Positions 31,434 through 60,331 of a stretch of 64,000 bases of DNA are shown here, piece by piece. The stretch lies in NCBI RefSeq assembly GCF_020085105.1, contig NC_058054.1, forward strand, positions 6,867,595-6,931,594, written 5' to 3'. The stretch comes from Siniperca chuatsi. Taxonomy: Eukaryota. A program made the position numbers and the translations under genes. Below the pieces are notes generated by a model. The model made no database searches. It was not told the DNA's origin and worked only from the letters and a program-made list of their open reading frames with translations. The stretch's first letter is position 1. Every line of letters starts with the position of its first letter.

Positions 31434-31994
31434 ATGAACACCTTTGAGCAAAACATTGACAATAACACAGACGATGATGAGAGCGCTGTGAGCAATCATG
31501 TCTCCACGACCATGGGTGCCCTCATCCTCAGCTTTGTCTTCCTCCTGGGCGTCCCTGGCAACCTCTTCATCGTCTGGAGCATCCTGGCACGCACCCGACG
31601 ACGCTCGATCACCACCCTCCTCATCCTCAACCTGGCGTGTGCCGATGGCTTTCTCATGGCCCTCACCATCTTCTTCATTGTCTACCTGGCCAAGCAGACA
31701 TGGGTCTTTGGTAACGTCATGTGTAAAGTCGTGTTCTACCTCTGCAACTCCAACATGTACGCCTCCATCTTTCTGATCACACTGATGAGCGTGCACAGGC
31801 TGGTGGCCGTGGTGTTCCCGCTTAAAGTGTCCACCCTGGTCAGCAAGAAGGTTGTGATAAGGGTGATCGTATGCATGTGGCTGCTGGTGATGATGATGTC
31901 TATCCCCTCACTGGTGTTTCGAGATGTGACAGAGGAAGAAGATGATAATATAACAAGATTGGTGTGTGTGCCCAATCACACCCTGTCTCGACAT
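31434..31994 (+). CDS. ltb4r: ltb4r coding exon 1 (TM1-TM4 plus ECL2 start): MNTFEQNIDNN...VCVPNHTLSRH.
   Basis: ATG at 31434 is in frame with ORF 31398..32099. Donor SRH|gtaagt at 31995. Confidence 0.9.
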
Positions 31995-46000: not shown

Positions 46001-47101
46001 TACCTCATTTATAGCTCTCCTCACTGCTGCGTAGCCCCCAGCCAGCCGAGCCGCCATGTACACCACACCTAACTCTTCATCATACCTGAAACACAGAGAG
46101 TGAGCTGTATATAAACGCATCTACATCTCAAAACCAAGCAGGACAAAATCACGAGTGAAGAGAGGGTTAAAAAAAAACAACCTGTCGCTCCACCTCTGCC
46201 TTTGTTCAGAGTCTGATATACTAACATAATAAGTGTCTGAACTTTACATACAGCTAGTGTCAGCATGAAAAGTGAAAATGAGCTGCCAATGTACTTACCT
46301 TATAACAGGTTTAAAATGTTAAATAATGGTCAGCACTGGCACAAATCAGACTTGTATCTTGTCTTAAGGTGGGTAAAGAATGCTCTGTCTCCATTAGAAA
46401 GTAGTCACATTAATTGAGATTGTTTGTGTACACACTTATACTTTTAAAACTCCAGTAAATTCATGGATAGTATCCTTATATAAAAGAACAGATAAAAGCA
46501 AGTGTTACTTCATGGGAGTCCAGTGATATGTGGTTCTTCGGAGCTCTGAAAACACTTTCTTCCTGATGCGGTCTTCCAGCGCTTGTTCATCTATATCTGC
46601 AATATAAAGCACATTTACTTTTCTCTGGCTGCTGCATCATATAATCTGTATGCAGTTATTATACATCCATTATTATTTTATGATTCGTGTGTCACCCACC
46701 TCCTCTCTTCTCCATCGCTTTCTCCCAAAGTTGTTTCTCCAGGCTCACAGCTTTCTGCCTCAGAGTGAAATCGTCGACTGCTCGTTTTCTGCTCCACAGG
46801 AAGTTTGTGAGGCTATGAGTGCGGTCAGTCAGCCGGGTCACCTGAGCTCCTACAGGTGGAGAGATCGAAGAGTCGCATGGCATTTTGACTCATTTCAGGA
46901 CCAGTGAAGCTACAGAAACATTTGGCGTACCAACTGATAGCCACATTCATAACTTAACCTACTGTGAATAATCGACCGTGCAGCCGTCTGCAGTTCCTCA
47001 GGAAGGCGCAGAGTTTTCAGGTTGGTCACACCTGGGTGCTTCCTGTGTACTTCTCCCTTTAGGAAATCTACCTGGGACTGTGGGTGTGCAGCTGCACTCA
47101 T
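42873..47101 (-). CDS. mettl17: mettl17 (methyltransferase-like 17, mitochondrial; Rsm22 family). Gene-level span. The model has 13 exons starting from the ATG at 47101 and totals 1395 nt (464 aa).
   Basis: The exon translations align with human METTL17: [19 protein letters not shown] / HRQHPGILKLPHVRLPQAL; [19 protein letters not shown] / VQTLTSYLWSRH; RRTTYHW / RKTTYHW; [15 protein letters not shown] / LVYMAARLDGGFAAV; [13 protein letters not shown] / LMDFGSGTGSVTW; [18 protein letters not shown] / YMCVDSSAAMLDLAEKLL; [28 protein letters not shown] / [28 protein letters not shown]; [12 protein letters not shown]; FAPCPHEL; [26 protein letters not shown] / [26 protein letters not shown]. Phases are consistent and the length is divisible by 3. 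Confidence 0.85.
43259..43455 (-). CDS. mettl17: mettl17 exon 12: [65 protein letters not shown].
   Basis: Acceptor ttttctcag, donor AG|gtaaag. Conserved Cys/His cluster. Confidence 0.85.
43930..44022 (-). CDS. mettl17: mettl17 exon 11: [31 protein letters not shown].
   Basis: Acceptor ttttccag, donor GGG|gtaaga. Confidence 0.8.
44124..44188 (-). CDS. mettl17: mettl17 exon 10: (I)[21 protein letters not shown].
   Basis: Acceptor cttacag, donor CCG|gtacgt. Confidence 0.75.
44256..44337 (-). CDS. mettl17: mettl17 exon 9: [27 protein letters not shown].
   Basis: Acceptor ggtatag, donor A|gtaata. Confidence 0.75.
44532..44639 (-). CDS. mettl17: mettl17 exon 8: [36 protein letters not shown].
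   Basis: Acceptor cctttcag, donor CTG|gttggt. Confidence 0.85.
45342..45351. repeat. G10 homopolymer (C10 on the mettl17 strand) in a mettl17 intron, abutting the exon 7 donor.
   Basis: agggggggggg. Confidence 0.9.
45356..45426 (-). CDS. mettl17: mettl17 exon 7: (G)[23 protein letters not shown].
   Basis: Acceptor gttgagcag, donor AAG|gtaacc. Confidence 0.85.
45541..45635 (-). CDS. mettl17: mettl17 exon 6: [31 protein letters not shown].
   Basis: ORF track 45503..45709 minus. Acceptor tcccacag, donor G|gtgcac. Confidence 0.85.
45727..45800 (-). CDS. mettl17: mettl17 exon 5: [24 protein letters not shown](W).
   Basis: Acceptor catttcag, donor TG|gttagt. Contains the SAM-binding motif I region DFGSG. 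Confidence 0.8.
46004..46085 (-). CDS. mettl17: mettl17 exon 4: (K)[27 protein letters not shown].
   Basis: Acceptor gtgtttcag, donor GAG|gtaatg. Confidence 0.85.
46509..46596 (-). CDS. mettl17: mettl17 exon 3: (D)[28 protein letters not shown].
   Basis: Acceptor tattgcag, donor AA|gtaaca. Confidence 0.8.
46700..46849 (-). CDS. mettl17: mettl17 exon 2: (R)[48 protein letters not shown].
   Basis: ORF track 46692..46883 minus. Acceptor cctgtag, donor G|gtgggt. Confidence 0.8.
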
Positions 47102-47104
47102 TCC
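46963..47104 (-). CDS. mettl17: mettl17 exon 1 of the model (ATG at 47101): [46 protein letters not shown].
   Basis: ORF track 46910..47125 minus. Acceptor tatcctcag immediately upstream. Donor A|gtaggt. Confidence 0.7.
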
Positions 47105-48725
47105 CTGAGGATAAAAAATAAGCACAAATGTTTCTTTACCAACACTTTAAACGCTAGTGAGTTAACAGTAACCAACCTCCTTCTGGTCTTAGATTAAAGC
47201 AAAATAATAGACAGACAAGAAATACCATTAGATAGTTTTAGAACCAAGATTTTGGTATTCAATTTTATTCTGTAGTGAATCTAAGCATATTTTATTTATG
47301 ATTTCTTCATTGATTAACTCACACTGAACCGCATAGATGTATTTTATCTATACACAGTTTTTAAATTGAATTTACAGGAAATCCACAAGGTCACAATGTA
47401 TATTCCTATTGCCATATCTAATACATATACTGTATTAAATTGTTTTATCTGTATTATCCACCCCTACAAGCACATACTGTCTGAAGAGCATAGTAAAATT
47501 AACAACACAACAACAAACACCAGAAAACTCATAACAAAAATCATGCCGTAGTGTTTCAGAAGCTTGTTTTGTTAGATAGTTTGTTGTTGAGTGACTGAAG
47601 GACTGGATTCAGCACTCGCACATAAGTTGAAATCTTTTTCCACAAATAATTGAGTCAGACTGTGATTCAGAAATGCTCTGTCTGTAAAGCTTTTTGCAGA
47701 AAACACATTTATAAATATGTATATATACAGTATAAGTATATGATATATGCAATGTATATATCTATTGAGTTTTTACAGAAGCACCATAAAGATTATCCTC
47801 TGCCACTGTGCCACGGTGTGGTATGCCAGCTGCATCTACACAAGAAGGTTAGCAACATCAGTAAGGACCCAACGCACTCAGTTCACAGTCTGTTTGTCTC
47901 CTTGCCATCGGGGAAGAGATACAGATCCATCAAAGCCCGATCTAACAAACTGAGGAACAGTTTCTTCCCCAGAGCTGTAGTCTCCATCACCCCCACCCAC
48001 CCATAGCTGTTGAGGACTGAGGACTGGACACTTTATTACATACAATACATATTACATCTGTAATATAAAATCTTCATACTACATTGTATCAATGTTATAA
48101 TAACAAGTACCTCATTCATCGTGCAATACCTGTTATACTGCACCGTTACGGTTTACCTGCCATGCATAATTAGGCTATATACAGATAGAGCTCACATGTC
48201 TCTGTATTGTTTTTAACTATCTAATTTGTTGTGCAATACCTTTTTATATAGTGCCTTAATTTATTATATATAGATAGAGGACTCTACCTCATTATTTTTA
48301 TCTTGTTTTCTATTGCTGCTGGTCTCTGAGAGTTACCAAACATAATTTCGTTGTATGCCTACAATGACAATAAAGTGTCTTATCTTATAATCGGTATTAT
48401 AGTCTAATTGTAGCAAATAATATCTTAAGAAAACAATAATTAGCAGATTGTTTCGGGGACCACTATATTTACCAGTCAAAATCTAGGTGAGAAATGTTAC
48501 ATTGCGTTGACAAAAAGCAACGTATTCAAACAGGAACAGACTGCTATTCACAGATGAAGACATGTGATAAATTAATGAATAAGAACAGTAAGTTTACTCC
48601 TACATAAACTGCGCTGTGAACAGAGCTAAACTATACTCCGTTTGTTTATCTCAGTCCTGTTTTTAACTGTCTGACCTCCATGGTAAAGATGCTGCGTTCA
48701 ATGACACTCACAAACTACACTCACC

Positions 48726-48793
48726 CTGCACATCATCTTCACGACAGTCGCCTTCTGGCAGAGGACACAGGCGCCATAGCTCCGTGATGCCAT
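48726..48793 (-). CDS. mettl17: Possible additional 5' exon of mettl17 (MASRSYGACVLCQKATVVKMMC + AG) ending at the strong donor CAG|gtgagtg. Its phase (2) does not join the downstream exon in frame, so it may be a 5' UTR exon, a uORF, or require an unseen intervening exon.
   Basis: ATG at 48793 on the minus strand. Donor gtgagtg at 48725-48719. Lies 630 bp from the parp2 ATG, head-to-head. Confidence 0.3.
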
Positions 48794-48978
48794 TTCTTCG
48801 GCGCCCGAACTGTGACTTCTTCTGTTTAAATGGCTCTAATTTTGAATTTAACTTTCATCCACACCGTGAAGACCACGGAGGCACGTTACGATTTTTTCTT
48901 TAACCAATCCTTCAACAAAATAATTCCGATCATCGGTTACGTCGGAACCTTTCGTCCCGAGGTTTTGTTCCACGAGCA

Positions 48979-48986
48979 TATATAAG
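48979..48986 (+). promoter_or_regulatory. Canonical TATA box (TATATAAG) in the mettl17-parp2 intergenic region.
   Basis: catatataagagag. The sequence is palindromic, so it could serve either strand. Confidence 0.5.
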
Positions 48987-49011
48987 AGAGACCCCTCACT
49001 CTGCCCTTGTT

Positions 49012-49225
49012 TCCGGGTACAGTCCAACATCTCATCTCGAAGATATTAATTTTAGCATAGTATGGACACAATTACGCATAAGCACGACATATTAAAAGCC
49101 ATTGCCAAAGTTGGACTATTTCTGATGAACTTTGAACATACTTTGAGCATCAAGCTCGACTTTGTTTCAGGTTTAGTGCTGAGATCGTTGCCATAGTAAC
49201 GGCAATGCCTCCACGCTTTTTTTTT
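49012..49225 (+). ncRNA. Candidate small Pol III-type (type-3 promoter-like) ncRNA of ~210 nt. It starts ~25-30 nt downstream of the TATA box and ends at a T9 terminator-like run, with internal long-range complementarity. Identity unknown.
   Basis: TATA at 48979-48986. A possible PSE-like element ttacgtcggaacctttcg lies at 48939-48956. The 8-mer AGTCCAAC (49021-49028) is complementary to GTTGGACT (49117-49124). A terminal hairpin ttgcc..ggcaa (49187-49205) is followed by TTTTTTTTT at 49217-49225. Confidence 0.25.
49217..49225 (+). terminator. T9 run, a Pol III terminator-like element.
   Basis: ccacgctttttttttgacg. Confidence 0.35.
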
Positions 49226-49239
49226 GACGAGGGTGTAGA

Positions 49240-49248
49240 GCGCATGCG
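49240..49248. promoter_or_regulatory. parp2: NRF1-like palindromic motif GCGCATGCG in the parp2 proximal promoter, ~180 bp upstream of the ATG.
   Basis: gagcgcatgcgtc. A Kozak-consensus accaccATGa sits at the start codon. Confidence 0.4.
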
Positions 49249-49426
49249 TCTGGGTCACAATAGGTTTTGTTTTAACCACGGAGTGATTCATCTCGATGCT
49301 AGACGATCTTTATATTTTAGCGGCACCACAGACTAGGAAACAGCGGCGGGGAAAGTTTTCCGCCGTCTTTGTTGTCACTGTGTCACCTTCGTTACTGTAC
49401 CTACCTGGCTATTTTCATAAACCACC

Positions 49427-49499
49427 ATGAGGCGTACAAGAAGTTCGAGAAATAAAAGTCAGAGTGCACAAGAAAATGAAGAAGTACAGTCAAAAACAG
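49427..49499 (+). CDS. parp2: parp2 exon 1: [24 protein letters not shown], a basic N-terminus.
   Basis: Kozak accaccATGa. Donor G|gttggt. Confidence 0.85.
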
Positions 49500-52400
49500 G
49501 TTGGTGCTAGTTTCCCGTAGGAAGGTTAGCTTGACAGGATAGCTAGCTGCTGTAACGTCGGCTATCGGGAAAATAAAGGAAAAAAAATGTTACGTACTTA
49601 TGGCCCATGCAGGCTTTACTGTTGTTGCAAAGCTTTTTAGGAAACAACATTTGTTTCTGCCCAGGGTGGCATCTATACCTGTAACAAGTTGACCATGTTA
49701 GTAAAAACCAGTCATTGCCCCACACTTAACACCTGTTTAAAACTCCAGTAACCTAAAGGTATTTGAGGCCTAAAGTGTGCATTTCTCAGGTGCATGTGCA
49801 TTTATAAGGTACAACCGTTTTGTACAGTCTATGGGTACAACTAGCTAGAACCAATACAGTCTAATACAACATGCAGGATGGTTATAATGTTCAGTTTTTG
49901 TTTTAGAAAGGTGTTGATTCAACTTTATAGTCATTTTGGAGGCTGCAGTTTGGGGTGCTGTTGAATCAGCACTGATGTGCATTTGTCCAAACCTATGTGC
50001 AACTCAGGTTATGCTTTTCAGACAAGGCATTTTAAGGCAACATATAAGTTGGAAGTAAAGTCGTTAAAGACCACTAAATTCATTCTGTTTCTAATGATAA
50101 TTGTGTAGTTGTTTTAAAGTACATACTGTTGGGGGGAAAGTGCTCAATCAGACGAATATCAGCAGTAAGAATAAGCTTTTACAGCTGATATCAGACTGTA
50201 TTGGTTTGGCAATATGTTGGTGCTTCTATTAAGATTGTTATCCTAAACTGCTGCCTTGGTAATTGAAGACTATCTGGTTGAATCAAAGTTGCAAAGAAGC
50301 ATATTTTGTAGTTTTTCCCTCTCTGCCCCATTTGCGTATGATTGGTCAGGTTTTCCCTACATTTTTCTCTGCAAGGACCTCTTCAAAACAGATCCGTATC
50401 GGATGCCAGACTCAATTTCAGTACCTCCAAAAAGCTTTACAAATTTTAAATATAAAAAAGAAACAACTGAGTCAACAATAACATAAAACGTATTAACAGT
50501 GTTAACTACATTTTTTTCCTAAAATGAAATAGAAGGTGAACCGAAACAGTAACGTGGAAGGGAGAGACTGCAGTCAAGTATTTCAATGAAAAGAAATGCC
50601 ATGTCGTGTCTATTAATTTAATCAGTCCCAACTTTTCTTCAATCTTAAATTGAAAATTTTTGTTCCACACTCCCAGTTGTTAGATATGACTTAGTACTAA
50701 AATATGTAAATATACTACATACCAGAGCTGCTTTGCACGATTATTTTCATTATTAATTTAGTAGCTATTTTTGATTAATTCAACAATCATTTTCTCTTTA
50801 AACTCTCAAAATAATGACAAGGGAACTTACCAGAACTTAAAGTGCTGTTTGAAATTAAAGTATTTGAATTGTTACAGTGGTAATAACAGCCTTTCTCACT
50901 GTGTGTGTTCAGTGTGGCAGTGGAAAGGAGATGATGGACAGTGGGAACCATACTCGCCTTCAGCCTGCGCCTTGTTGGACTCCGCCGTCTCTTCAGGAAA
51001 AACCTCTGTCACTCTGACTCTGGGCTCTGGGACGGCCTACGAAGTCGACCTGAAGAAGATGGTCCAGATTAATCCTGTCACCAAGTACAAGAGGAAGATT
51101 CGCTCTCAGACAGTAAAACCAGGTATGTGTGTGTTATGTGTTATGTCTTATGTCTTGTCATTTTCTGCCACAGCACGTTTTATTTTAAATAAGTTATATT
51201 ATTTTAAATTGTTTTTTAATTTCCGTCATCTCCTCTGCTTGGATTTTTGCTATCAGTGTGTATTATTTTGCATTTAATTAATAACTTTGTCATGTTGATG
51301 TCTTAAGGTTTCTTAGGGTGTCTTGTAGCCAACAAATCCAACTTTCCCAAAAATTACCATCATCCTATTTCACATTTTTTTAACAGTTGTTTTATTAGAT
51401 TTATTACATTTAATAGATTTACACATTTTACACATTGTAACCTTTTTAGGAAAGGCTTTGTGTAGTAGTTAGTAGTCATAGTAGAAGTATTAAATTAAAT
51501 TTATATTGTTTTTGTTCAGTTTTTTAATTGTATTTGTAAATCATTGTATCATTGTATAAATCTATAATCATTGTATATCAACATTACTGAAGGTATTTAA
51601 AATGTTTCCTCTCTTGTCTTCTTTTGTTCAGAAAGTTTGAATGAAGCTGGTGACGTGACTGCTCATAATGGGAGGCCAGTTCAAGTTAAAGAGGAAGAGG
51701 AGGAGCAACCTGCAGCTAAGAGGAGAAGAGGGCAAAGCAAAAAGGAGAGTCAGACAAAAGCTGAAGAAATGCCCAAAGAAGAAATAAAAAGTGAAGGTAA
51801 CGTGGATCTAATTGTCATGTATGTTGCTATGTAATACCGTAAGACAATGAAATAGGATTTTAAAGTTGTGGGTAACTGGTTTCCGTTTTAGTTTTGTTTT
51901 TTCGGTTTATTCAGGTTAAAAGGACATGGTGTTACCTGTACTTCATAGTAGATGTCAGTTGACCTCATTAATGGTTTGTCTCTGATCTTTGGATGTTGAA
52001 CAGAGGTTGTGAGGACGGTGGTCATGAAAGGAAAAGCTCCAGTGGACCCTGAATGTAAAGCCAAACTCGGAAAGGTGCAGTATCTATATCCACACGAGAT
52101 ATGAAACTCAAGATTTACATGCTTCTGGTTTAAAACCTGTTTGAAGAGCATTCCAGTTGCAGTTCCCCTTGAGAGCATGTCAGTTTGTGGTTTATTATAC
52201 ATGGGTGTGTTACTATTCTGTTAAATGTCGGATCTTAAATCAGTCAATTGATTGCCGTTTGAATATTTTAAATGATTGTTGTACCCAGAGCAACTTCTTA
52301 GAAATTTTATTTTGTGTGTGCAGGTCAATGGGCAATAGATATGAAAGCATATCACTGCGGTTACTTACAGTAACAATGTACGATGTAGGTTTGATTCTTG

Positions 52401-55400
52401 GAAATGAACATTTAATTAGTAATCATTATTAAGTATCTTCTATAATCTTTAATAAAACAGCCATACTAGCACAAACATTTAGAGCTGCAACAGTTAGTTG
52501 ATGAAAAGAAGACAATGAGTTGTCGACTATTTTCATAATCGACTAAATTGCTTCAGTAATTTTTATTGCAAAAATTTAAAATTTGCTGGTTCCAGCTTCT
52601 CATATATGAGGATTTACCACTTGTCTATATCTATATATCATATATGATAATGAATAAAATATGTTTCAGTTTTGGACTGTTTGCCGAACAAACCAAGCAG
52701 CTTTAGGGCGTCACTTTGGGTTCTGGGAAGTTGTGTTGGCCGTTTTTCACTACTCTGTGAAAATGTACTTTATCACTTGTGTTATGTATGAACAATTTCA
52801 TAAATCATTGTTGTCTTAATAAACTGTACAAAAAAATTCATGCAGTGTAAAGAAAGGAAATAAGAAGTTTACAGTTTTTAATTTCCCCCTGCAGATCAGG
52901 TGTGGTTACCTTCATTTATTTTAGTAACTGTTCAATTTCTCTTTCAGGCTCATGTTTACAGTGAAGGAAATGATGTTTACGACGTGATGCTAAATCAGGT
53001 AAAATGTTTAATAGCATTTAATTACAAGTTGACTCAAAGGGATCTGCCAAATGAATATCCTAAAATGTTGAGAGGGAATTTTCTTACACTCAAAGCTGGA
53101 AGGGCTTTTTGGTCAAAATTCAAAAGCAGTAGTCTTTATTTCCATATTGAGTAGTGCTGACTGACTAAAAAAGTAATTGTCAATAGTTAATAGATATTCA
53201 ATCACAATCGTTCACCACAGTTATACTTATTAGAGCGAAATGTATTTAACTACGCTTCTTGGCTCGATAACGTTCCGGCTGTTTTCACCTACACTTCAAT
53301 GTGTGATATGCGATTCTTCATAGCTAATAATGCAGCTCCTATACTGAAAAACAGAAATCAAGTGAAGGCTTTAATTGTATTTTCATTTTACATTTTGATT
53401 TGTGGGAAAGTGAATATATTGTTACCTTTCTGTTTTATTTTGTAGACAAATCTTCAGTTTAACAACAACAAATACTACCTGATCCAGCTGCTGGAGGACG
53501 ACAGCTCCAAGGCTTACAGTGTGTGGTTTAGATGGGGCAGAGGTGAGTTTATGTGCCCATGATTGTTAGCATATCTGACAGATGTATAAATGTTTGTATT
53601 TAAGCAGGAAATTAACACCAGCCTGCAGTTCAGAAGATCTTTTCTAAATTGTAAACTAACCGATTAAATATATTTTGGTGTTTCTCCACTGTTTTTCAGT
53701 GGGAAAAGTGGGTCAAAACAGTCTGACAGCCTGTGGTGGAGACCTGCTGAAAGCCAAAGATTTCTTCAAGAAAAAGTGAGATTGTGCTATTAAAAAATAT
53801 ATTTCTGGATGTCTCCCATTGAAGTGAGATTAATAACATTCTGAAACTGGTTTGTTTTGCCACAGGTTCTTTGACAAGACCAAGAATGAGTGGGAACACC
53901 GAGCGAGTTTTGAGAAAGTAGCTGGAAAATACGACATGGTGTTCATGGACTACAGCACGAATGAAAAGGCAAGGAGCAAGACAAAGAACCAACAACTTAT
54001 ATATCTCCTCATTATCTTTGTAATTAGGACTTGACAACTCAGAAATAGGAGCTTTCATTGAATTGCAGGTAAGGTCTATCATTATGAACACTGCCGTATT
54101 TCACTGTTCCAGGAGGAGAACCAGACCACAGTGGATGTTGCACTCAAAAAGAGGACCTCCAAGCTGGATGTGAAGATCCAGTCGCTCCTGGAGCTAATCT
54201 GTGACCTCAAAGCCATGGAGGAGTGTGTGCTGGAGATGAAGTTTGACACCCGGAAAGCTCCTCTCGGTCAGTCTGACAGAATCGAAATCGCAATAGAAAT
54301 GTACCGGAATTTGTCCCGTTATACTCTTTTAATTTCTACTAACAACATTCACAGAATTTAATAAAATTTTACATAGAGCACATATAGCATTTAAAAATAT
54401 TATATATATATATATATAAAAGTTGCTGCGATGTGATCCAAAGATGCAATAAAACAAGTTCTCATCATTTTAGCTCCAATTGTGCCACCTGACTGTATGA
54501 GTAGCTGGTGACAAACATGTAACCAGTATTTTCAAACCTTTCGTTGTTGTGCTTCATATTTCATATTCATATTTCTTCATATTTTAAATTCAGTATTTAT
54601 CTTTCTACCTGCAGGCAAGCTGACCTCAGAGCAGATCCGTGCAGGCTACACGGCACTGAAGAAAATTGAGACGTGTATGAAGAAGAAGGGCAGCAGTCGT
54701 GAGCTGCTGGAAGCATGCAACCAGTTCTACACCCGCATCCCTCATGACTTTGGGTAAGGAATATCTGGCTGTACAGTTAGAGAGATGCACTAATGCTGCT
54801 GTGAAATTGATGTCTAAATGCTGACTTGCTGTAACTAAAAGATGTAATTTTCCAGGTTGAAAACTCCTCCAATCATTCGTACAGAAGATGAGCTGAAGGA
54901 AAAAATTGCACTGTTGGAGGTACAGGGGTTCTCCATTAAGTGAGGTCTACAATTATTCTGTTTATGTCTTTACTTAAATCTGTGGTCATACATTTTTTTT
55001 ATCTTATTTCTTTTTTCAGGCTCTGAGTGACATTCAGATAGCAGTGAAAATGGTTCAGTCCAGTGAAGACAGTGATGAACATCCTCTGGACAGACAGTAC
55101 AGCTCCCTCCAGTGCCAACTGCAGCCTCTGGACTCAAGCTGCCATGAGTACAAGGTCAGCGTTTTTCTATTCATAACTGTTACAGTGATAATGATTTATT
55201 AACCTGGACTAATACACTGCTACTGTGTTCATGGATGCACGCTCAAGATTTATGTGGAGCATTTATTATCTAACCAAGTCACTGAAATTGTCATCACAAC
55301 AGTCAAACCAGAAAAGTAGGTCCAAGTCAATCAGGATTTTCAAGACACTCTTTCAAGACAGTTTGCTCTTGGCCAATTAATATTCCCAAACCAACATCAT

Positions 55401-58400
55401 AGGCTGATGTATTTGTTCTTGGTCAGTCAAACTGCACCAAAAACATCAAATGATCCAAGGCAACTTAATATAATATCCTTTGCAAGATGATGATGCAGAC
55501 GGCACTCTCTGTGTTGCGCTCTCTTTTTTCTTTTTCTGTTTTTGTTTATTTGTTCAGTTTTCAGCTCTCCCTTTCCGATTACATTCACCGGGGAGGAACT
55601 TTTATATACACATCTATTTTTTCACGTACTTGTATGTACATTATAGTTAAATGTTTATCTGTCTTTGTTCAGCTTTGTTGTTGTTGTTTTTAGCTGTAGT
55701 CCTATGTCTATTTGTCTCTTCCTGAAAATTGCGTGTAAGTACATCGTGAGCAACGAAAAATCTGAGTCAATTTCCTTGTAGGTGTACACATACTTGACCA
55801 GTAAAGCTGTGGATCCTGATAATCCACATATAAAATGTTGAACTGCTCCTCTAGGTCTAGTATTTTGTTGAAAATCGTACATGTACTTCAGTGCGACTGA
55901 ATAGCCCTTATTGGATTTTTTTTTAAACTATTGGTGAGGTACCTTGCATACGTGGTCAATTGTAGATGATGTTGCATATTAATGTTTTTCAGCTACAATG
56001 GAGTTGAATGTCTAAAGAATTTTCAGATGTGTTTATATATGTGTATGTATATCTAAGTATATCTGTATCTATATCTATAATGTAATGGTACATGAAACAG
56101 CAACATTTTCTTTGTAGAGCTGCCTTTCTGTACAAACTTCAAGCCACCACACAGGGAGGGACTGTTTCATTGTAAACTTTCCTCTTCTCTGTGTGAAGGT
56201 GATAGAAAAGTATCTACAGTCCACTCACGCCCCCACCCATTGTGACTACACCATGACTGTGCTTGACATCTTCTCAGTGGACAGAGAGGGGGAGAGTAAC
56301 AACTTCCTCTCACAGTTACACAACAGGTAATACACAGTGGGCTTAGTGTTTGTATAAATTGGGAATACACCTGTTGGCTTTGATAAATACCATTACTGGT
56401 TTATGTCGCCTCAGATGTTATATTGTATGTGCTGTGCTTCTTTGAAATCTGCATTGCTACAAAGTTTGCCTGCATAACGTCTGACAATGAAATCAATAAA
56501 ATATGGTGCTCTTAGAAGTGAACTTCTCTTCACACAGCCCACTATGTCTATCTATCTGTCTGTCTACCTACCTACCTACCTGTCTGTCTACCAGGACTCT
56601 GTTGTGGCATGGTTCCCGTCTGTCTAACTGGGTCGGCATCCTCAGTCAGGGGCTCCGAGTGGCCCCACCTGAAGCTCCTGTCACTGGTTACATGGTAGGA
56701 TGGACAGAAAAATACATGCAATTACTGTTTTTCACTTGATACATCCGTATCAAGTGAAATAATAATTTCCGTTTCTCTTTCATCTAGTTTGGAAAAGGCG
56801 TCTACTTTGCTGACATGTCGTCAAAGAGTGCCAACTACTGCTTTGCCAATCAGCACAACCACGTTGGACTGCTGCTTCTGTGTGAGGTGAGTTGATTGAC
56901 TCTTTTCTGTGGCCAGATTAAATGTTTTGTCTCACCTGCCAGTGGCTGTTAAATGGCTGGTAAAGAAAATTTACAGAAGTAATTGTGTGTGCATCCCATT
57001 CTATATTTAGGCCAAATGCAGTACAACAGATTCAATGGAGGAAAAAAAGTGTAGTGTCTGCACACTGGATTTTAGCTCCCCAAAATTTATTAGTATTATA
57101 TTAGTATTTGACTGAAAAAGGCAATATTTCGACCCTTTATCATATTTTGAATGTTTTTCAAATCATTAAAAAAATTCATATAAAGACTAACCAGCCACGT
57201 CACACAATATGAAAACATTTTAATCAGTGGGATCTATTAAATGTGATCAAATGAATCAATTTTTTTCTATTTAAACTTTGTATAGACTTGTCTTGTATCA
57301 CTCTGTTTCAGGAATATACTTTTTTCTTTTTCTTTTTTTAAAACAAACAGACATTTAGGGTGTTTTTTAGATGTATTTTGTGGGATTACTGTGACTGTGT
57401 TTTGTGATTCTTTCAGGCACTGACAATGTATTTTATCTTGATTATGTATCAAGTCATATCATGAATAGGTACTTATAATGACATCAGCATTTGGTGTCTG
57501 TATATTTGTCAGATGAAGACCAGGTAGGGAGCAAAACAGTGTGCAGGAGTTTTATCATTGGTAAAGAAAGTTTATCTGCCAAGAAACAATTTTGCCATCC
57601 AGTATAACCCATATACTGTAATTAGTTTGGGTGTTATCAGTCTATAGCATAGGTTAAGCACTGTGTAAAACATTGAACTCATTTATAGAGTAGATTTGCT
57701 TTTTGCAGGTCTCACACCTGCTATATGTCAACTCTATTTCTACAAATACTAAGATGTTCAATGATGATGTACACTGATGAGGAGTGTAAAAAAAGTATGT
57801 TTACATTGTTGTATCGTAGAAAAGGTTTAAGTCGTAGTCATCTGGACACTGTTTTCAGACGTTTCGGCTCCCATCCGGAAGTCATTCTCAATTGAGAATG
57901 ACTTCCGGATGGGAGCCGAAACGTCTTGATTCTGAAAACAGTGTCCAGATGACTACGACTGAAACCTTTTCTACGATAGAACACTCCTGGACGAATGAGG
58001 GACTACACCGTTTTACATTGTTGTATTAAATTTACTGGGAAAGATAGCAAGAGATATCCTCCAAAGACTAATTGTGCCAGTAGTTGGTGCGTTTATTTCA
58101 GACCCTGTAGACCTGCCAATACAAGTCCACAACTCGTATTAACAATAAAAACCAACATGATGTGAACTTCACATTACATGTTTGGCCCAGATGTGATGCA
58201 GCACTGTTTTAACGTCCATGCTTTGTGTCTGTGTGTGGTTGCAGGTCGCTCTGGGAGACTGTAACGAGCTGCTGGATGCCGACTTCGAGGCCAGCAGTCT
58301 GCCTGCTGGAAAACACAGCACCAAGGGCCTGGGACAGACTGCACCTGACCCCAAAAACTCCATCACTCTGTTAGTCTGTCTCATTACACTGATACATTGG

Positions 58401-60331
58401 ATACAGGCCAAACATTGATTTAATTGTGCTCACTGTTACACAACAAAAATCATTACATTATCTGAGAGGGGGAGTTTGTTAATTACAGTAGCAACGAAAA
58501 AATGCAGGTTGATGAGCACAGAGAAGAATAAAAATATAATATAATATTACAAGAAGTAGCCCATAAAGAGTCTATATTGGTTTTAAAGAGTTCTTTCTTT
58601 GAGATTTATAGTTATTTGACAAAACATTTTCCAAAACAACCATCACCACTGGTGTCTTCTGATGTGTCCTACTCTGCTAACTGTAAAATAATTTTATTTC
58701 TAATTTCTTATATGTTTATGTTTGTAAAGGGTAAAAAAGTAAGTAAGTAAGGGAAAGTAAGGATGTTTCCAGCTGTCGTTTTCCTATTAACTTCACAAAA
58801 TAATACATTTATGTATTATTCTATAATATTATTTCATCAGTGTGTTTTTACAACAGTAAATACATTCAGCTCAGAAACCCCAATATCTTTATAGTTTTTG
58901 GCTAGATTACCTAAGATGTTTATTTTATCTATGTAGACCTACATGTATTTGTTGAGGGCCATTTTCAAGCACATAAAAATGTCAGATGGTTTTACTCCAG
59001 AAAAAAGGCAATTTGGAGTAAAACCACTAAAATGAAAGTCAAAATACCTAAATGCTGACCTCTGTTTGCTCTGTAGTGGCTCGTACACTAATGGACTGAC
59101 CTTGCTTTACTCTCATTTGTTCTGCTGTCTCTCCCACTCTGCTGCCTCGTCTCTCTAGATTTCACAATCTGAAAAAATACTGTTTTTCTTTACAGAACAG
59201 TCCTCGGGGCATGAAACTAATTTGATTTAGTGCCATCCTTGAAATCCAAATCTGATCCACCTCAAGAGACAATCCTGGTTGTTTCAGTCAAGTCATTTTG
59301 AAGCATTTTATGGTTCTCAAATGTGAGAATTTGCTGCTTGTTACATTATACCAAATATTTTGGGGTTTTGGACATTTGATGACGTCGCCTGCTGTACGAT
59401 GTTGTGATGGACATTTTTCACTGTTTTCTGATTCTGGTTTTATAGACGATTAATCGATAATGAAAATAATCGTTAGTTGCAGCCCTAGTTTTAGCCCCTC
59501 TACAATAGAGCTCTAACGATTAATCGATAGATGGGAAATTGATCTGCAACAAATTTAATTGATTAATCGTTTTAAGTAATTTTTTAAGCAAATATGCCAA
59601 AATCCTCTGGTTCCAGCTTCTCCAATGTGAATATTTGCTTTGTCTTCTATGATTGTAAAATAAATATCTTTGGTTTTTGGACTGATGGTTGCACTAAACA
59701 AGGTATTTGACAACATCTTGGACTCTAGGACACTGGGATAGGCCTTTTCTTTTCTTCTTTTTTTACCATTTTCTGGACCCAACGTTTAATCAATTAAGAG
59801 AAAATAAGTTTTAGATTAATCAGTAATAAATATAATCATTAGTTGGAGCCCTAACTGAACATATTTTGCATTACTGCCAACCAATTTCCAAATAATTGTA
59901 TGATATTTTAGATGAGATTTACCACCTTCCTGTCAGCAACTGGTTACAGTTAATCTCAAGCACGTCTGAAGTCTCTGCAAGTTAATTTTCATATTGTGCT
60001 GGCATGGACTGAAACTAGTAACTCTCTGAAAGGTTGGAAATCACTCTAAAAACTTATGGTATGTTTTCAAAAATAGTCAGAAGTATTGTAAAGGAAAGGC
60101 AATTTGTACTCAATGTGTTAAAACCACCAGAATGGTCCTTAAATAAATGCAACTTTTCAATTCTTTCTCAGGGATGGTGTGACTGTGCCAATGGGGCCGG
60201 GGGTGAAGACGGGGGTGGGCAAATACAACGCTTACTCCCTCCTGTACAATGAGTTCATCGTTTATAACCCTGCCCAGACTCGCATGAGGTACCTGCTGCG
60301 GATCAAGTTCAACTACTCTTCACTGTGGTGA
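49427..60331 (+). CDS. parp2: parp2 (poly(ADP-ribose) polymerase 2). Gene-level span of a 17-exon CDS totalling 1950 nt (649 aa). It contains an N-terminal WWE-domain exon not present in mammalian PARP2.
   Basis: The WGR domain [52 protein letters not shown]...WFRWGRVGKVGQ is nearly identical to human PARP2. Helical and catalytic domains also match: [96 protein letters not shown]. All splice phases are consistent and the length is divisible by 3. Confidence 0.92.
50913..51122 (+). CDS. parp2: parp2 exon 2, WWE domain: [70 protein letters not shown].
   Basis: Acceptor gtgttcag, donor G|gtatgt. The WxW..D..W..Y...LE.A......V.L......Y.VDL..M.Q.N..T...R.IRR pattern matches the WWE consensus as in RNF146 and PARP11/14. 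ORF track 50771..51277. Confidence 0.85.
51632..51796 (+). CDS. parp2: parp2 exon 3: [55 protein letters not shown], an acidic/basic linker with a KRRR NLS-like motif.
   Basis: Acceptor ttgttcag, donor G|gtaacg. ORF track 51637..51834. Confidence 0.85.
52004..52074 (+). CDS. parp2: parp2 exon 4: [24 protein letters not shown].
   Basis: Acceptor gaacag, donor AAG|gtgcag. Confidence 0.9.
52478..52700. mobile_element. Partial copy of the 'gggctgcaactaac' MITE family in parp2 intron 4.
   Basis: agagctgcaacagttagttgatgaaaagaagacaatgagttgtcgactattttcataatcgactaaattgc...ggttccagcttctcatatatgaggatttacc. Confidence 0.6.
52948..52998 (+). CDS. parp2: parp2 exon 5: [17 protein letters not shown].
   Basis: Acceptor ctttcag, donor CAG|gtaaaa. 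Confidence 0.9.
53446..53542 (+). CDS. parp2: parp2 exon 6 (WGR): [32 protein letters not shown].
   Basis: Acceptor ttttgtag, donor G|gtgagt. Confidence 0.9.
53700..53775 (+). CDS. parp2: parp2 exon 7: [25 protein letters not shown].
   Basis: Acceptor tttttcag, donor AA|gtgaga. Confidence 0.9.
53866..53968 (+). CDS. parp2: parp2 exon 8: [35 protein letters not shown]. It ends at a GC donor (AAG|gcaagg).
   Basis: Acceptor gccacag. Downstream read-through hits a stop and the next conserved exon starts in phase 0 at 54113. A GC-AG intron gives exact alignment length to human PARP2. Confidence 0.8.
54113..54266 (+). CDS. parp2: parp2 exon 9: [51 protein letters not shown].
   Basis: Acceptor tgttccag, donor G|gtcagt. 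ORF track 54131..54361. Confidence 0.9.
54397..54418. repeat. (TA)n microsatellite in a parp2 intron.
   Basis: atattatatatatatatatatat. Confidence 0.85.
54615..54753 (+). CDS. parp2: parp2 exon 10: [46 protein letters not shown].
   Basis: Acceptor tacctgcag, donor GG|gtaagg. Confidence 0.9.
54856..54919 (+). CDS. parp2: parp2 exon 11: [22 protein letters not shown].
   Basis: Acceptor ttttccag, donor GAG|gtacag. Confidence 0.9.
55020..55154 (+). CDS. parp2: parp2 exon 12: [45 protein letters not shown].
   Basis: Acceptor ttttttcag, donor AAG|gtcagc. Confidence 0.9.
56199..56326 (+). CDS. parp2: parp2 exon 13: [42 protein letters not shown].
   Basis: Acceptor gtgtgaag, donor AG|gtaata. Confidence 0.9.
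56545..56592. repeat. (CTAT/CTGT/CTAC)n pyrimidine-rich tetranucleotide microsatellite forming the polypyrimidine tract of the parp2 exon 14 acceptor.
   Basis: ctatgtctatctatctgtctgtctacctacctacctacctgtctgtctaccag. Confidence 0.8.
56595..56694 (+). CDS. parp2: parp2 exon 14 (catalytic): (R)[33 protein letters not shown].
   Basis: Acceptor ctaccag, preceded by a (CTAT/CTGT/CTAC)n pyrimidine microsatellite at 56545-56592. Donor ATG|gtagga. ORF track 56503..56739. Confidence 0.9.
56787..56885 (+). CDS. parp2: parp2 exon 15: [33 protein letters not shown].
   Basis: Acceptor catctag, donor GAG|gtgagt. Confidence 0.9.
57813..57977. repeat. ~165-bp near-perfect palindrome (foldback/MITE-like hairpin element) in parp2 intron 15, centred on ctcaattgag at 57886-57895. 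The arms are identical except for a 6-nt TTGATT indel.
   Basis: Left arm tcgtagaaaaggtttaagtcgtagtcatctggacactgttttcagacgtttcggctcccatccggaagtcattctcaattgag is the reverse complement of the right arm. A half-copy lies at 5038-5140. Confidence 0.85.
58245..58369 (+). CDS. parp2: parp2 exon 16: [41 protein letters not shown].
   Basis: Acceptor ggttgcag, donor CT|gttagt. ORF track 58218..58418. Confidence 0.9.
59395..59843. mobile_element. One to two adjacent or nested copies of the 'gggctgcaactaac' MITE family in parp2 intron 16 (termini ...cgttagttgcagccctag and ...cattagttggagccctaactg).
   Basis: gattaatcgataatgaaaataatcgttagttgcagccctag; ctctaacgattaatcgatag...ggttccagcttctccaatgtgaatatttgc...cattagttggagccc. 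Confidence 0.65.
60172..60331 (+). CDS. parp2: parp2 exon 17 (last): [53 protein letters not shown].
   Basis: Acceptor tttctcag. Stop TGA at 60329-60331. Human ...YNEYIVYNPNQVRMRYLLKVQFNFLQLW*. Confidence 0.9.

What the first reader, a model, noticed from the sequence alone, without database searches (positions are those of the whole stretch)
50913..51122. Fish parp2 carries an N-terminal WWE (iso-ADP-ribose-binding) domain exon absent from mammalian PARP2
The second coding exon encodes [66 protein letters not shown]. This reads as a textbook WWE domain: the W-x-W...W..Y core, the Y-x-V/I-D-F/L..M.Q.N and the R-x-I-R-R tail, as in RNF146 and PARP11/14. It is spliced in frame between the basic N-terminal exon and the canonical WGR-helical-catalytic exons. 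The whole model totals 1950 nt (649 aa), about 66 aa longer than human PARP2 (583 aa), and the WWE exon accounts for the excess. Human PARP2 has only a basic SAF/SAP-like N-terminus. If real, this lineage has PARP2 reading poly(ADP-ribose) through a WWE module and writing it with the same polypeptide. That is a different domain architecture from the mammalian enzyme, with implications for PAR-dependent recruitment and branching.
Basis: partly seen in the sequence, partly recalled or inferred. Interest (0 to 1): 0.6.

Follow-up and report, generated by a model that had tools for sequence, protein, structure and literature searches.

The report
Fish PARP2 WWE exon: real, known
The exon really does encode a WWE (ADP-ribose-reading) domain spliced into the fish DNA-repair enzyme PARP2, but this architecture is already annotated and published, is ancestral to animals, and was lost only in placental mammals.

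Summary
Observation confirmed. Window 50913-51122 (+) is a 210-nt, phase 1-1, AG/GT-bounded exon. Its peptide matches Pfam WWE (E=3.8e-19, 69 bits against a cut-off of 21).

The 17-exon, 649-aa model is letter-for-letter RefSeq XP_044076681.1, PARP2 of Siniperca chuatsi. Its domain order is WWE, WGR, PARP_reg, PARP.

It is not new. Perina et al. 2014 already reported WWE domain(s) at the N-terminus of PARP2 in frog, fish and other non-mammals. All 120 best homologues (teleost PARP2) already carry the Pfam WWE call.

The framing needs three corrections:
1. The domain is ancestral, not a fish innovation. Sponge, oyster, sharks, sturgeon, lungfish, amphibians, reptiles, marsupials and monotremes carry two WWE domains in tandem. 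Only placental mammals lack them.
2. Teleosts keep only the second domain. That is the copy with a complete ligand pocket.
3. The pocket resembles HUWE1/TRIP12 (terminal ADP-ribose type: Trp28, Asp31/32). It does not resemble the iso-ADP-ribose-specific RNF146, and PARP11/14 are more distant.

PAR binding is inferred, not shown. I found no functional study. Low interest as a discovery.

The parts
49427..49499 (+). parp2 coding exon 1. It holds the ATG and a short basic N-terminus, [24 protein letters not shown], plus the first base of Val25.
   Evidence: Read directly. GT donor at 49500-01. Part of the model identical to XP_044076681.1. AF2 pLDDT is below 50 for residues 1-22.
50913..51122 (+). 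parp2 coding exon 2, the finding itself. One complete WWE domain (aa 25-88) plus 6 linker residues. 210 nt, symmetric phase 1-1.
   Evidence: Pfam PF02825 at E=3.8e-19. AF2 pLDDT 89.6 with a beta-beta-alpha-beta-beta-beta-beta layout. Foldseek best hits are the HUWE1 and TRIP12 WWE domains, TM 0.81-0.89. Mean identity 86% across 125 teleost PARP2s, against 72% in the flanking segments.
51632..51796 (+). parp2 exon 3. Predicted disordered acidic/basic linker (EEEEE ... KRRRGQSKK) between WWE and WGR.
   Evidence: AF2 pLDDT is below 50 for aa 93-164. Its role as a nuclear-localisation or nucleic-acid-binding patch is inference.
52004..52074 (+). parp2 exon 4 ([24 protein letters not shown]). This is the start of the region shared with human PARP2.
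   Evidence: tblastn with a recalled human PARP2 sequence; model.
52948..53968 (+). parp2 exons 5-8: 52948-52998, 53446-53542, 53700-53775 and 53866-53968. They encode the WGR domain (aa 184-263). Exon 8 ends in a GC donor (AAG|GCAAGG).
   Evidence: PF05406, E=5e-24. The GC-donor model is confirmed by exact identity to the RefSeq protein.
54113..55154 (+). parp2 exons 9-12: 54113-54266, 54615-54753, 54856-54919 and 55020-55154. They encode the PARP regulatory (helical) domain, aa 298-428.
   Evidence: PF02877, E=1.2e-45.
56199..60331 (+). parp2 exons 13-17: 56199-56326, 56595-56694, 56788-56886, 58245-58369 and 60172-60331 (includes the TGA stop). They encode the ADP-ribosyltransferase catalytic domain, aa 443-643, with His494, Tyr528 and Glu624.
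   Evidence: PF00644, E=5e-78. H494, Y528 and E624 are invariant in the 58-sequence alignment.

Best explanation
Shown. Window 50913-51122 is the constitutive second coding exon of parp2 in the mandarin fish Siniperca chuatsi. It encodes one complete WWE domain (aa 25-88). In the predicted structure this domain is a separate globular module. It follows a roughly 22-residue basic tail and is joined to the WGR-helical-catalytic core by a linker of about 70 residues that is predicted to be disordered.

Shown. The domain is orthologous to the second of two tandem WWE domains found in PARP2 of most animals. Teleosts lost the first copy. Placental mammals lost both.

Inferred. The domain is a poly(ADP-ribose) reader of the HUWE1/TRIP12 kind. 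Trp28 would stack on the adenine and Gln76 would hydrogen-bond it. Tyr67, Asn78, Thr81 and Arg85 would hold the phosphates. The acidic Asp31/Asp32 loop and the Trp in place of RNF146 Tyr107 argue against iso-ADP-ribose selectivity. The preferred ligand is therefore the ADP or terminal ADP-ribose unit.

Inferred. By binding PAR made first by PARP1, or by PARP2 itself, the domain would tether the enzyme at ADP-ribosylated damage sites and favour further PAR synthesis on existing chains. The unstructured basic N-terminal region does this job in human PARP2.
For: - Exon and frame.
- Domain identity: Pfam WWE E=3.8e-19 on the exon alone and 4.8e-18 in the full protein, with WGR, PARP_reg and PARP following.
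- Gene model: exact sequence identity to XP_044076681.1.
- Splicing: all 120 best homologues are teleost PARP2 carrying PF02825. Many come from 2-3 kb contigs that can only be spliced mRNA. Fourteen such ORFs are gapless across junctions 1/2 and 2/3. The mRNA contig L001 reads exon1-WWE-exon3-exon4 contiguously.
- Fold: AF2 pLDDT 89.6. Foldseek hits HUWE1-ADPr 6pfl/8rd7 at TM 0.81-0.89 and TRIP12-ADP 9bks at TM 0.85, rmsd 1.1 A.
- Ligand residues: mapped through the HMMER alignments to HUWE1 and TRIP12 onto the contacts listed by Munzker et al. 2024 (PMC11269756). They are 97-100% conserved in 125 teleosts and invariant in a 58-sequence vertebrate alignment.
- Orthology to the second WWE: alignment with sturgeon, reedfish and lungfish.
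- Ancestral tandem architecture and placental-only loss.
- Modular layout: full-length AF2 gives pLDDT 73-88 for the WWE and below 50 for aa 1-22 and 93-164.
- Functional analogy: the human PARP2 N-terminal region binds PAR and is needed for PARP1-dependent recruitment and branched PAR synthesis (Chen et al. 2018, PMC6089979).
Against: - No binding or cell experiment exists for any PARP2 WWE domain in the literature I could search. PAR binding and the recruitment role rest on residue conservation and analogy only.
- HUWE1 Asn1674 (Thr825 in TRIP12) is Tyr83 in the fish.
- TRIP12 WWE has the same pocket yet binds an 11-mer PAR much more weakly than HUWE1. Pocket conservation therefore does not predict affinity.
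- WWE domains also bind ATP and ADP in vitro, so free nucleotides cannot be excluded as ligands.
- The full-length AF2 model has only moderate confidence (mean pLDDT 65.5). It says nothing reliable about contacts between domains.
- The search tools gave no RNA-seq from S. chuatsi itself. The same-species evidence is the RefSeq model.
Confidence: 0.7

Rival explanations
1. A fish-lineage architectural novelty in which PARP2 acquired an RNF146-like, iso-ADP-ribose-specific WWE reader.
For: A WWE domain really is present. RNF146 is a detectable relative: 3v3l at E=4e-3 by sequence and TM 0.87 by fold. The adenine and proximal-phosphate residues shared with RNF146 (Tyr144, Gln153, Arg163) are conserved as Tyr67, Gln76 and Arg85.
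Against: - The architecture occurs in sponge, oyster, flatworm, centipede, sharks, sturgeon, lungfish, amphibians, reptiles, marsupials and monotremes. It is ancestral, not a gain.
- RNF146 Tyr107, which contacts the distal ribose, is Trp28. Arg110, which contacts the distal phosphate, is Asp31. The loop is acidic, as in HUWE1 and TRIP12, which prefer ADPr over iso-ADPr.
- DTX1, TRIP12 and HUWE1 score four to eight orders of magnitude better than RNF146 by sequence.
Confidence: 0.08
2. The WWE fold is retained but does not read PAR. It would act as a protein-protein interaction or autoregulatory module, or bind ATP/ADP, as proposed for WWE domains that lack PAR binding such as that of PARP14.
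For: - The PARP14 WWE is reported to be devoid of PAR binding.
- The first WWE of tandem-WWE PARP2s lacks the phosphate-binding Tyr in all 72 sequences, so degenerate WWEs persist in this same protein family.
- WWE domains bind ATP analogues in vitro.
- TRIP12 WWE binds PAR weakly despite an intact pocket.
Against: Every ADP-contacting residue defined in the HUWE1 and TRIP12 co-crystals except one is conserved. They are near-invariant across 125 teleosts and 72 other vertebrates: Trp28 71/72, Tyr67 70/72, Gln76 72/72, Asn78 72/72, Arg85 68/72. That degree of conservation is hard to explain without ligand binding. Teleosts kept precisely the ligand-competent copy and lost the degenerate one.
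Confidence: 0.2
3. A gene-model artefact. The exon would belong to another transcript, or normally be skipped, because its 1-1 phase allows in-frame skipping. The mature fish PARP2 would then resemble the mammalian enzyme.
For: The exon is 210 nt and phase 1-1, so joining exon 1 to exon 3 would stay in frame (G+AA = Glu). I could not inspect same-species RNA-seq directly.
Against: - The model exactly equals the RefSeq protein.
- All 120 best homologues carry PF02825, and none is a WWE-less isoform.
- Fourteen transcript-derived ORFs and mRNA contig L001 include the exon with no gap at either junction.
- The exon is under stronger constraint than its neighbours: 86% against 72% mean identity.
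- No other gene-like ORF lies between exon 1 and exon 3.
Confidence: 0.02

Closest known systems
PARP2 of non-placental animals with N-terminal WWE domain(s), described by Perina et al. 2014 (DNA Repair 23:4, PMC4245714) and annotated in RefSeq/UniProt.
   Same: Same gene, same order of WWE, WGR, regulatory and catalytic domains. The window's protein is itself one of these database entries (XP_044076681.1).
   Different: Most non-teleost members have two WWE domains in tandem: sponge, oyster, ray, sturgeon, lungfish, frog, lizard, opossum, platypus. Teleosts have one, the orthologue of the second.
WWE domains of the HECT E3 ligases HUWE1 and TRIP12 (PDB 6MIW, 6PFL, 8RD7, 9BKR, 9BKS)
   Same: Best structural matches, at TM 0.81-0.89 and rmsd 1.0-1.5 A for the closest chains. 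Same ligand set: stacking Trp, adenine-binding Gln, and phosphate-binding Tyr, Asn, Thr and Arg. Same acidic Asp-Asp loop where RNF146 is basic.
   Different: 33-39% identity only. Here the domain is attached to a PAR-writing enzyme instead of a ubiquitin ligase. HUWE1 Asn1674 (TRIP12 Thr825) is Tyr83. Ligand binding has not been tested.
RNF146 (Iduna) WWE domain, the iso-ADP-ribose reader (PDB 3V3L)
   Same: WWE fold (TM 0.87). Equivalents of Tyr144, Gln153 and Arg163 are conserved.
   Different: Tyr107 is Trp28 and Arg110 is Asp31. No clear equivalent of Lys175. The determinants of iso-ADPr preference are therefore missing.
N-terminal region (NTR) of human PARP2
   Same: Same position in the protein, upstream of WGR. 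The NTR binds PAR and mediates PARP1-dependent recruitment and branched-chain synthesis (Chen et al. 2018). That is the role I infer for the fish WWE. The fish also keeps a basic patch (KRRRGQSKK) in its linker.
   Different: The human NTR is short, basic and has no WWE (Pfam finds only WGR, PARP_reg and PARP in placental PARP2). Its PAR binding is thought to be of the nucleic-acid-binding type rather than through a pocket.
PARP11 (single WWE + ART) and PARP7/12/13/14 (clade 3 WWE-PARPs)
   Same: WWE and an ADP-ribosyltransferase domain on one polypeptide. [quoted passage not shown]
   Different: These are a different PARP clade, made of mono-ARTs without WGR or the helical domain. Their WWE domains are much more distant: 2dk6 at TM 0.64 and 1x4r at TM 0.72, both with rmsd about 5 A. 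The PARP14 WWE lacks PAR binding.

Membership tests
WWE domain (Pfam PF02825) | Sequence profile match above the curated gathering score | tested here: met
   69.3 bits against a cut-off of 21.1, E=3.8e-19, profile positions 2-66 of 67. 65.7 bits in the full-length protein.
WWE domain (Pfam PF02825) | [quoted passage not shown] | tested here: met
   On a predicted structure only. AF2 pLDDT 89.6, with strands 2-4, 10-12, 31-36, 40-45, 50-52 and 59-63 and helix 15-26. All 24 Foldseek PDB hits with E below 0.1 are WWE domains.
WWE domain (Pfam PF02825) | Binding of ADP-ribose-derived ligands or PAR | not testable with these tools
   Needs ITC, fluorescence polarisation or NMR with the recombinant domain.
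HUWE1/TRIP12-type (ADP / terminal ADPr-binding) WWE | Trp stacking on adenine, Gln hydrogen-bonding adenine, and Tyr/Asn/Thr/Arg holding the phosphates (HUWE1 W1619, Gln, Y1658, N1669, T1672, N1674, R1676) | tested here: met
   The equivalents are W28, Q76, Y67, N78, T81 and R85. They are 97-100% conserved in 125 teleosts. Only the N1674 position differs (Tyr83).
HUWE1/TRIP12-type (ADP / terminal ADPr-binding) WWE | Acidic residues in the loop that binds the distal phosphate in RNF146 (HUWE1 D1621-22, TRIP12 D773-74) | tested here: met
   K29-G30-D31-D32-G33. D31 is present in 125/125 teleosts. Position 32 is E or D in 102/125.
RNF146-type iso-ADP-ribose-specific WWE | Tyr107 hydroxyl contacting the distal ribose | tested here: not met
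   The position is Trp28 (123/125 teleosts), as in HUWE1 and TRIP12.
RNF146-type iso-ADP-ribose-specific WWE | Basic pocket for the distal phosphate (Arg110, Trp114, Lys175) | tested here: not met
   Arg110 corresponds to Asp31. Trp114 corresponds to Trp35 and is conserved. No residue aligns with Lys175 (my manual alignment; Lys93 lies nearby, so this position is inconclusive).
PARP2 (clade 1 DNA-damage PARP) | WGR + PARP regulatory (helical) + PARP catalytic domains, in that order | tested here: met
   PF05406 at aa 184-263, PF02877 at 298-428, PF00644 at 443-643.
PARP2 (clade 1 DNA-damage PARP) | H-Y-E catalytic triad | tested here: met
   H494, Y528 and E624 are present and invariant in the 58-sequence alignment. 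Assigning them as the triad rests on general knowledge of PARP catalytic motifs.
PARP2 (clade 1 DNA-damage PARP) | Orthology to annotated PARP2 | tested here: met
   Exact identity to XP_044076681.1. 93% identity to Micropterus salmoides PARP2. Collinear with a recalled human PARP2 over all WGR-to-C-terminus exons.
PARP2 (clade 1 DNA-damage PARP) | DNA-break-dependent poly(ADP-ribosyl)ation activity | not testable with these tools
   Needs an enzyme assay.

The most novel reading that the evidence does not exclude
In all animals except placentals, PARP2 would be a true reader-writer. The ligand-competent second WWE domain would bind the terminal ADP-ribose of an existing PAR chain and hold the catalytic domain there, driving PAR-dependent recruitment and chain extension or branching. 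Placental mammals would have replaced this pocket-based reader with the basic disordered N-terminal region. The first, Tyr-less WWE would be a non-binding partner that teleosts could discard. The searchable literature contains no experiment on any PARP2 WWE domain. The placental-only loss and the difference between the two WWE copies also seem not to be described there.
Probability: 0.4. Interest if true: 0.45.

Novelty: already known. Interest (0 to 1): 0.15.

Why it matters
As a discovery it adds little. The domain is in RefSeq, UniProt and Pfam for more than a hundred fish, and it was noted in print in 2014.

It does matter practically. Zebrafish, Xenopus egg extract and other non-placental models have a PARP2 whose N-terminus differs from the human drug target. 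Results on PARP2 recruitment, PAR-dependent activation, branching or inhibitor trapping may therefore not transfer directly.

The refinements found here give a cleaner evolutionary frame and a cheap biochemical experiment that no one appears to have published. Those refinements are the ancestral tandem WWE, the loss only in placentals, the teleost retention of the ligand-competent copy, and a HUWE1/TRIP12-type rather than RNF146-type pocket.

Tried and rejected
1. The first homologue search used exon 1+2 (94 aa). It returned only 22 single-exon genomic ORFs and no full-length proteins, so it said nothing about architecture. It did yield P0020/L001, a spliced mRNA contig.
2. Rfam at gathering threshold over the whole window gave 0 hits. 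No structured RNA gene lies next to parp2 here.
3. I looked for a decayed second WWE exon in 46000-53500, all six frames, with two HMMs. Nothing scored better than E=0.6 apart from exon 2 itself.
4. A neighbour-joining tree of isolated WWE domains did not place the teleost domain cleanly in the W1 or the W2 clade. The question was settled by alignment with sturgeon, reedfish and lungfish.
5. The bacterial-type promoter/terminator scan and the composition profile around exon 1 are irrelevant for a vertebrate gene. They showed only higher GC in the exon.
6. Wang et al. 2012 (PMC3278890, the RNF146/iso-ADPr structure paper) is not held. I took the residue roles from Munzker et al. 2024 instead.
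7. The full-length AF2 model reached only pLDDT 65.5. I used it for the ordered/disordered layout and not for interdomain contacts.
8. Citarelli et al. 2010 list WWE only in PARP clades 2 and 3, so that paper is not the prior report.
Full report
**1. The observation**

The coordinates 50913-51122 are exact exon boundaries. An AG acceptor sits at 50911-12 and a GT donor at 51123-24. The exon starts with the last two bases of a codon. Read from 50915 it gives [69 protein letters not shown]. The preceding Val is completed by the G that ends exon 1 (49427-49499, ATG...ACA G|GT).

Pfam scores the 70-residue peptide as WWE (PF02825). E is 3.8e-19 and the score is 69.3 bits against a gathering cut-off of 21.1. 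The match covers profile positions 2-66 of 67. This is not a chance resemblance.

**2. The gene**

I used a recalled human PARP2 sequence only as a guide for tblastn and read the splice sites directly. This gave 17 exons from 49427 to 60331. All are AG/GT except one GC donor after exon 8.

Pfam on the protein finds WWE at 25-88, WGR at 184-263, PARP_reg at 298-428 and PARP at 443-643.

An exact-sequence look-up shows that this protein is NCBI XP_044076681.1, 'poly [ADP-ribose] polymerase 2 [Siniperca chuatsi]'. The window is therefore mandarin-fish DNA, and the model, GC donor included, is the public RefSeq model.

**3. Is the exon really spliced in?**

- All 120 best database homologues are teleost PARP2 proteins of about 650 aa with precomputed Pfam WWE+WGR+PARP_reg+PARP. 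None is a WWE-less isoform.
- Many of these come from 2-3 kb assembled contigs that hold a roughly 1950-nt ORF. Such contigs can only be spliced mRNA. Fourteen of them align without any gap across the exon 1/2 and 2/3 junctions.
- One mRNA contig from a more distant fish (L001, Logan SRR11928275) reads exon 1, WWE, exon 3, exon 4 and the whole rest of PARP2 in one frame, interrupted by a single TAA.
- Across 125 teleost sequences the WWE segment is 86% identical on average. Exon 1 and the following linker are 72%. The WWE level is close to that of the WGR and catalytic domains.
- The exon is phase 1-1, so skipping it would stay in frame. I saw no evidence that this happens.

**4. Fold and ligand pocket**

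AlphaFold2 on the exon peptide gives pLDDT 89.6 and the strand-strand-helix-four-strand order of a WWE domain.

Foldseek against the PDB returns only WWE domains at E below 0.1:
- HUWE1 with ADP-ribose and TRIP12 with ADP/ATP rank first, at TM 0.81-0.89 and rmsd about 1.0-1.5 A for the closest chains.
- RNF146 follows at TM 0.87 and rmsd 2.2 A.
- PARP11 and PARP14 are clearly more distant, at TM 0.64-0.72 and rmsd about 5 A.

By sequence the order is DTX1 (8.5e-11), TRIP12 (1.8e-7), HUWE1 (5e-7), then RNF146 (4e-3).

Munzker et al. 2024 (PMC11269756) list the contacts in the co-crystals:
- a Gln that hydrogen-bonds the adenine;
- a stacking Trp (Tyr in RNF146);
- Tyr and Arg on the proximal phosphate;
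- in HUWE1, specifically Tyr1658, Asn1669, Thr1672, Asn1674 and Arg1676.

Through the HMMER alignment these map to fish Trp28, Gln76, Tyr67, Asn78, Thr81, Tyr83 (the one difference) and Arg85. They are 97-100% conserved in 125 teleosts. W26, W28, W35, Y67, Q76, N78 and R85 are invariant in a 58-sequence alignment that reaches sharks and marsupials.

The same paper attributes RNF146's preference for iso-ADP-ribose to Tyr107, Arg110, Trp114 and Lys175. It notes that HUWE1 and TRIP12 have Trp and two Asp at the first two of these sites and prefer ADPr/ADP. The fish has Trp28 and Asp31-Asp32. The domain therefore belongs with the HUWE1/TRIP12 type, and the label 'iso-ADP-ribose-binding' is not supported. 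Actual binding has not been tested.

**5. Layout of the whole protein**

A full-length AF2 model has only moderate confidence (mean pLDDT 65.5). It still shows the WWE as a folded unit (pLDDT 73-88) flanked by low-confidence segments at 1-22 and 93-164. The picture is a globular reader on a flexible, roughly 70-residue acidic/basic tether ahead of the WGR domain.

**6. Distribution**

An exhaustive HMMER search of 50%-identity representatives, followed by my own WWE HMM scan, Pfam and name look-ups, shows WWE+WGR+PARP_reg+PARP proteins in many animals. These include a sponge (Ephydatia), oyster, a snail, a centipede, a flatworm, an electric ray, a frog, a snake and the platypus. Most have two WWE domains.

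A further search seeded with platypus PARP2 lists the WWE call in:
- both monotremes and eleven marsupial species;
- salamanders, caecilians and frogs, including Xenopus tropicalis;
- squamates, tuatara, crocodilians and turtles;
- lungfish, sturgeon and reedfish;
- several sharks and rays.

Every named protein without it (560-584 aa for full-length entries) is a placental mammal. These span Afrotheria, Xenarthra, Laurasiatheria and Euarchontoglires. Of the 120 proteins listed, 72 have two WWE domains, one has a single domain, and 47 have none.

The WWE is therefore ancestral in animal PARP2 and was lost on the placental stem, not in 'mammals'.

**7. Which copy did teleosts keep?**

Alignment with sturgeon, reedfish and lungfish places the teleost domain on the second WWE. 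Compare Siniperca '...[22 protein letters not shown]' with sturgeon '...YTVDLVKMVQINNKTKYQRKIQ'. No remnant of another WWE exon is detectable in 46000-53500.

In the 72 tandem proteins the second WWE keeps the full ligand set: W 71/72, Y 70/72, Q 72/72, N 72/72 and R 68/72. The first WWE never has the phosphate-binding Tyr; it has Leu, Ile, Phe or a gap there. Teleosts thus retained the ligand-competent copy.

**8. Prior knowledge**

Perina et al. [quoted passage not shown] Citarelli et al. 2010 had listed WWE only in clades 2 and 3. Suskiewicz et al. 2023 treat human PARPs only.

I found no functional study of a PARP2 WWE domain.

Chen et al. 2018 showed that the human PARP2 N-terminal region binds PAR and is required for PARP1-dependent recruitment and branched PAR synthesis. 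This is the closest functional analogue of what the fish WWE is likely to do.

**9. Mechanism and verdict**

Shown:
- the exon, its splicing and its domain identity;
- the predicted fold;
- residue conservation;
- orthology to the second WWE;
- the phylogenetic distribution.

Inferred:
- the domain binds the ADP or terminal ADP-ribose unit of PAR;
- it thereby tethers PARP2 to ADP-ribosylated sites, helping PAR-dependent recruitment and further synthesis.

However, the feature is already annotated and published. It is ancestral rather than fish-specific. It is present in non-placental mammals. It is not of the RNF146 iso-ADP-ribose type.

Novelty: already known. Interest: low.

Noticed in passing
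Related proteins P0320-P0333; no window coordinates: Marsupial (11 species) and monotreme (platypus, echidna) PARP2 entries carry WWE domains, while every placental entry listed lacks them. The loss is therefore placental-specific, not mammalian as the literature phrase 'non-mammalian' suggests.
   Followed up: yes
Window 50913-51122 compared with P0349, P0428, P0356 and 72 tandem-WWE PARP2s: Teleosts keep one WWE, orthologous to the second of an ancestral tandem pair. In the tandem proteins the first WWE always lacks the phosphate-binding Tyr (it has Leu, Ile, Phe or a gap), so it looks ligand-incompetent. No relic of a first-WWE exon is detectable in 46000-53500.
   Followed up: yes
Window 53968-53970: Exon 8 of parp2 ends in a non-canonical GC donor (AAG|GCAAGG). 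A downstream in-frame GT (GTAATT) would add a hydrophobic stretch of about 17 aa. The GC choice is confirmed by exact identity with the RefSeq protein.
   Followed up: yes
L001:113-2032 (Logan SRR11928275 contig), stop at about 584-586: A full-length parp2 mRNA contig from another fish has a single in-frame TAA where other fish have AAA (Lys) in the conserved ...PVDAECKA*LGKAHVY... motif. The gene caller split it into two ORFs. It could be an assembly or sequencing error, or a real nonsense allele.
   Followed up: partly
Window 50913-51122: The WWE exon is symmetric (phase 1-1, 210 nt). Skipping it would join exon 1 to exon 3 in frame (G+AA = Glu). No WWE-less isoform appears among the 120 best homologues.
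   Followed up: partly
PMC4245714, section 3.1.1: Perina et al. [quoted passage not shown] 'Bird' is probably a slip, perhaps for lizard. No bird appears among the PARP2 hits.
   Followed up: partly
Window 1-64000: No Rfam family reaches its gathering score anywhere in the window. From memory, the human PARP2 promoter is shared head-to-head with the RNase P RNA gene RPPH1. No such RNA gene is detected upstream of fish parp2 here.
   Followed up: partly
Window 31398-32099 (+) and 40246-40764 (+): Neighbouring genes upstream of parp2. One ORF is a rhodopsin-family GPCR (7tm_1, E=8e-30). The other contains DUF1731, the C-terminal domain of SDR39U1-type epimerase-family proteins (E=6e-19).
   Followed up: partly
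Window 9187-9954 (-), 16464-17135 (-), 25064-25468 (-): There are two long Ser/Pro-rich ORFs on the minus strand. By eye they look like the regulatory region of an NFAT-type factor. A third ORF looks like a Tc1/mariner transposase fragment (...DNDPKH...). None gave a Pfam hit at E<=0.01, so these readings are unverified.
   Followed up: partly
One search compared: The word-indexed protein search with the 94-aa N-terminal query found only 23 candidates, all genomic single-exon ORFs. It missed more than 100 full-length teleost PARP2 proteins that contain the same domain at 80-93% identity. Short queries to that tool can therefore give a misleading picture of what is known.
   Followed up: no
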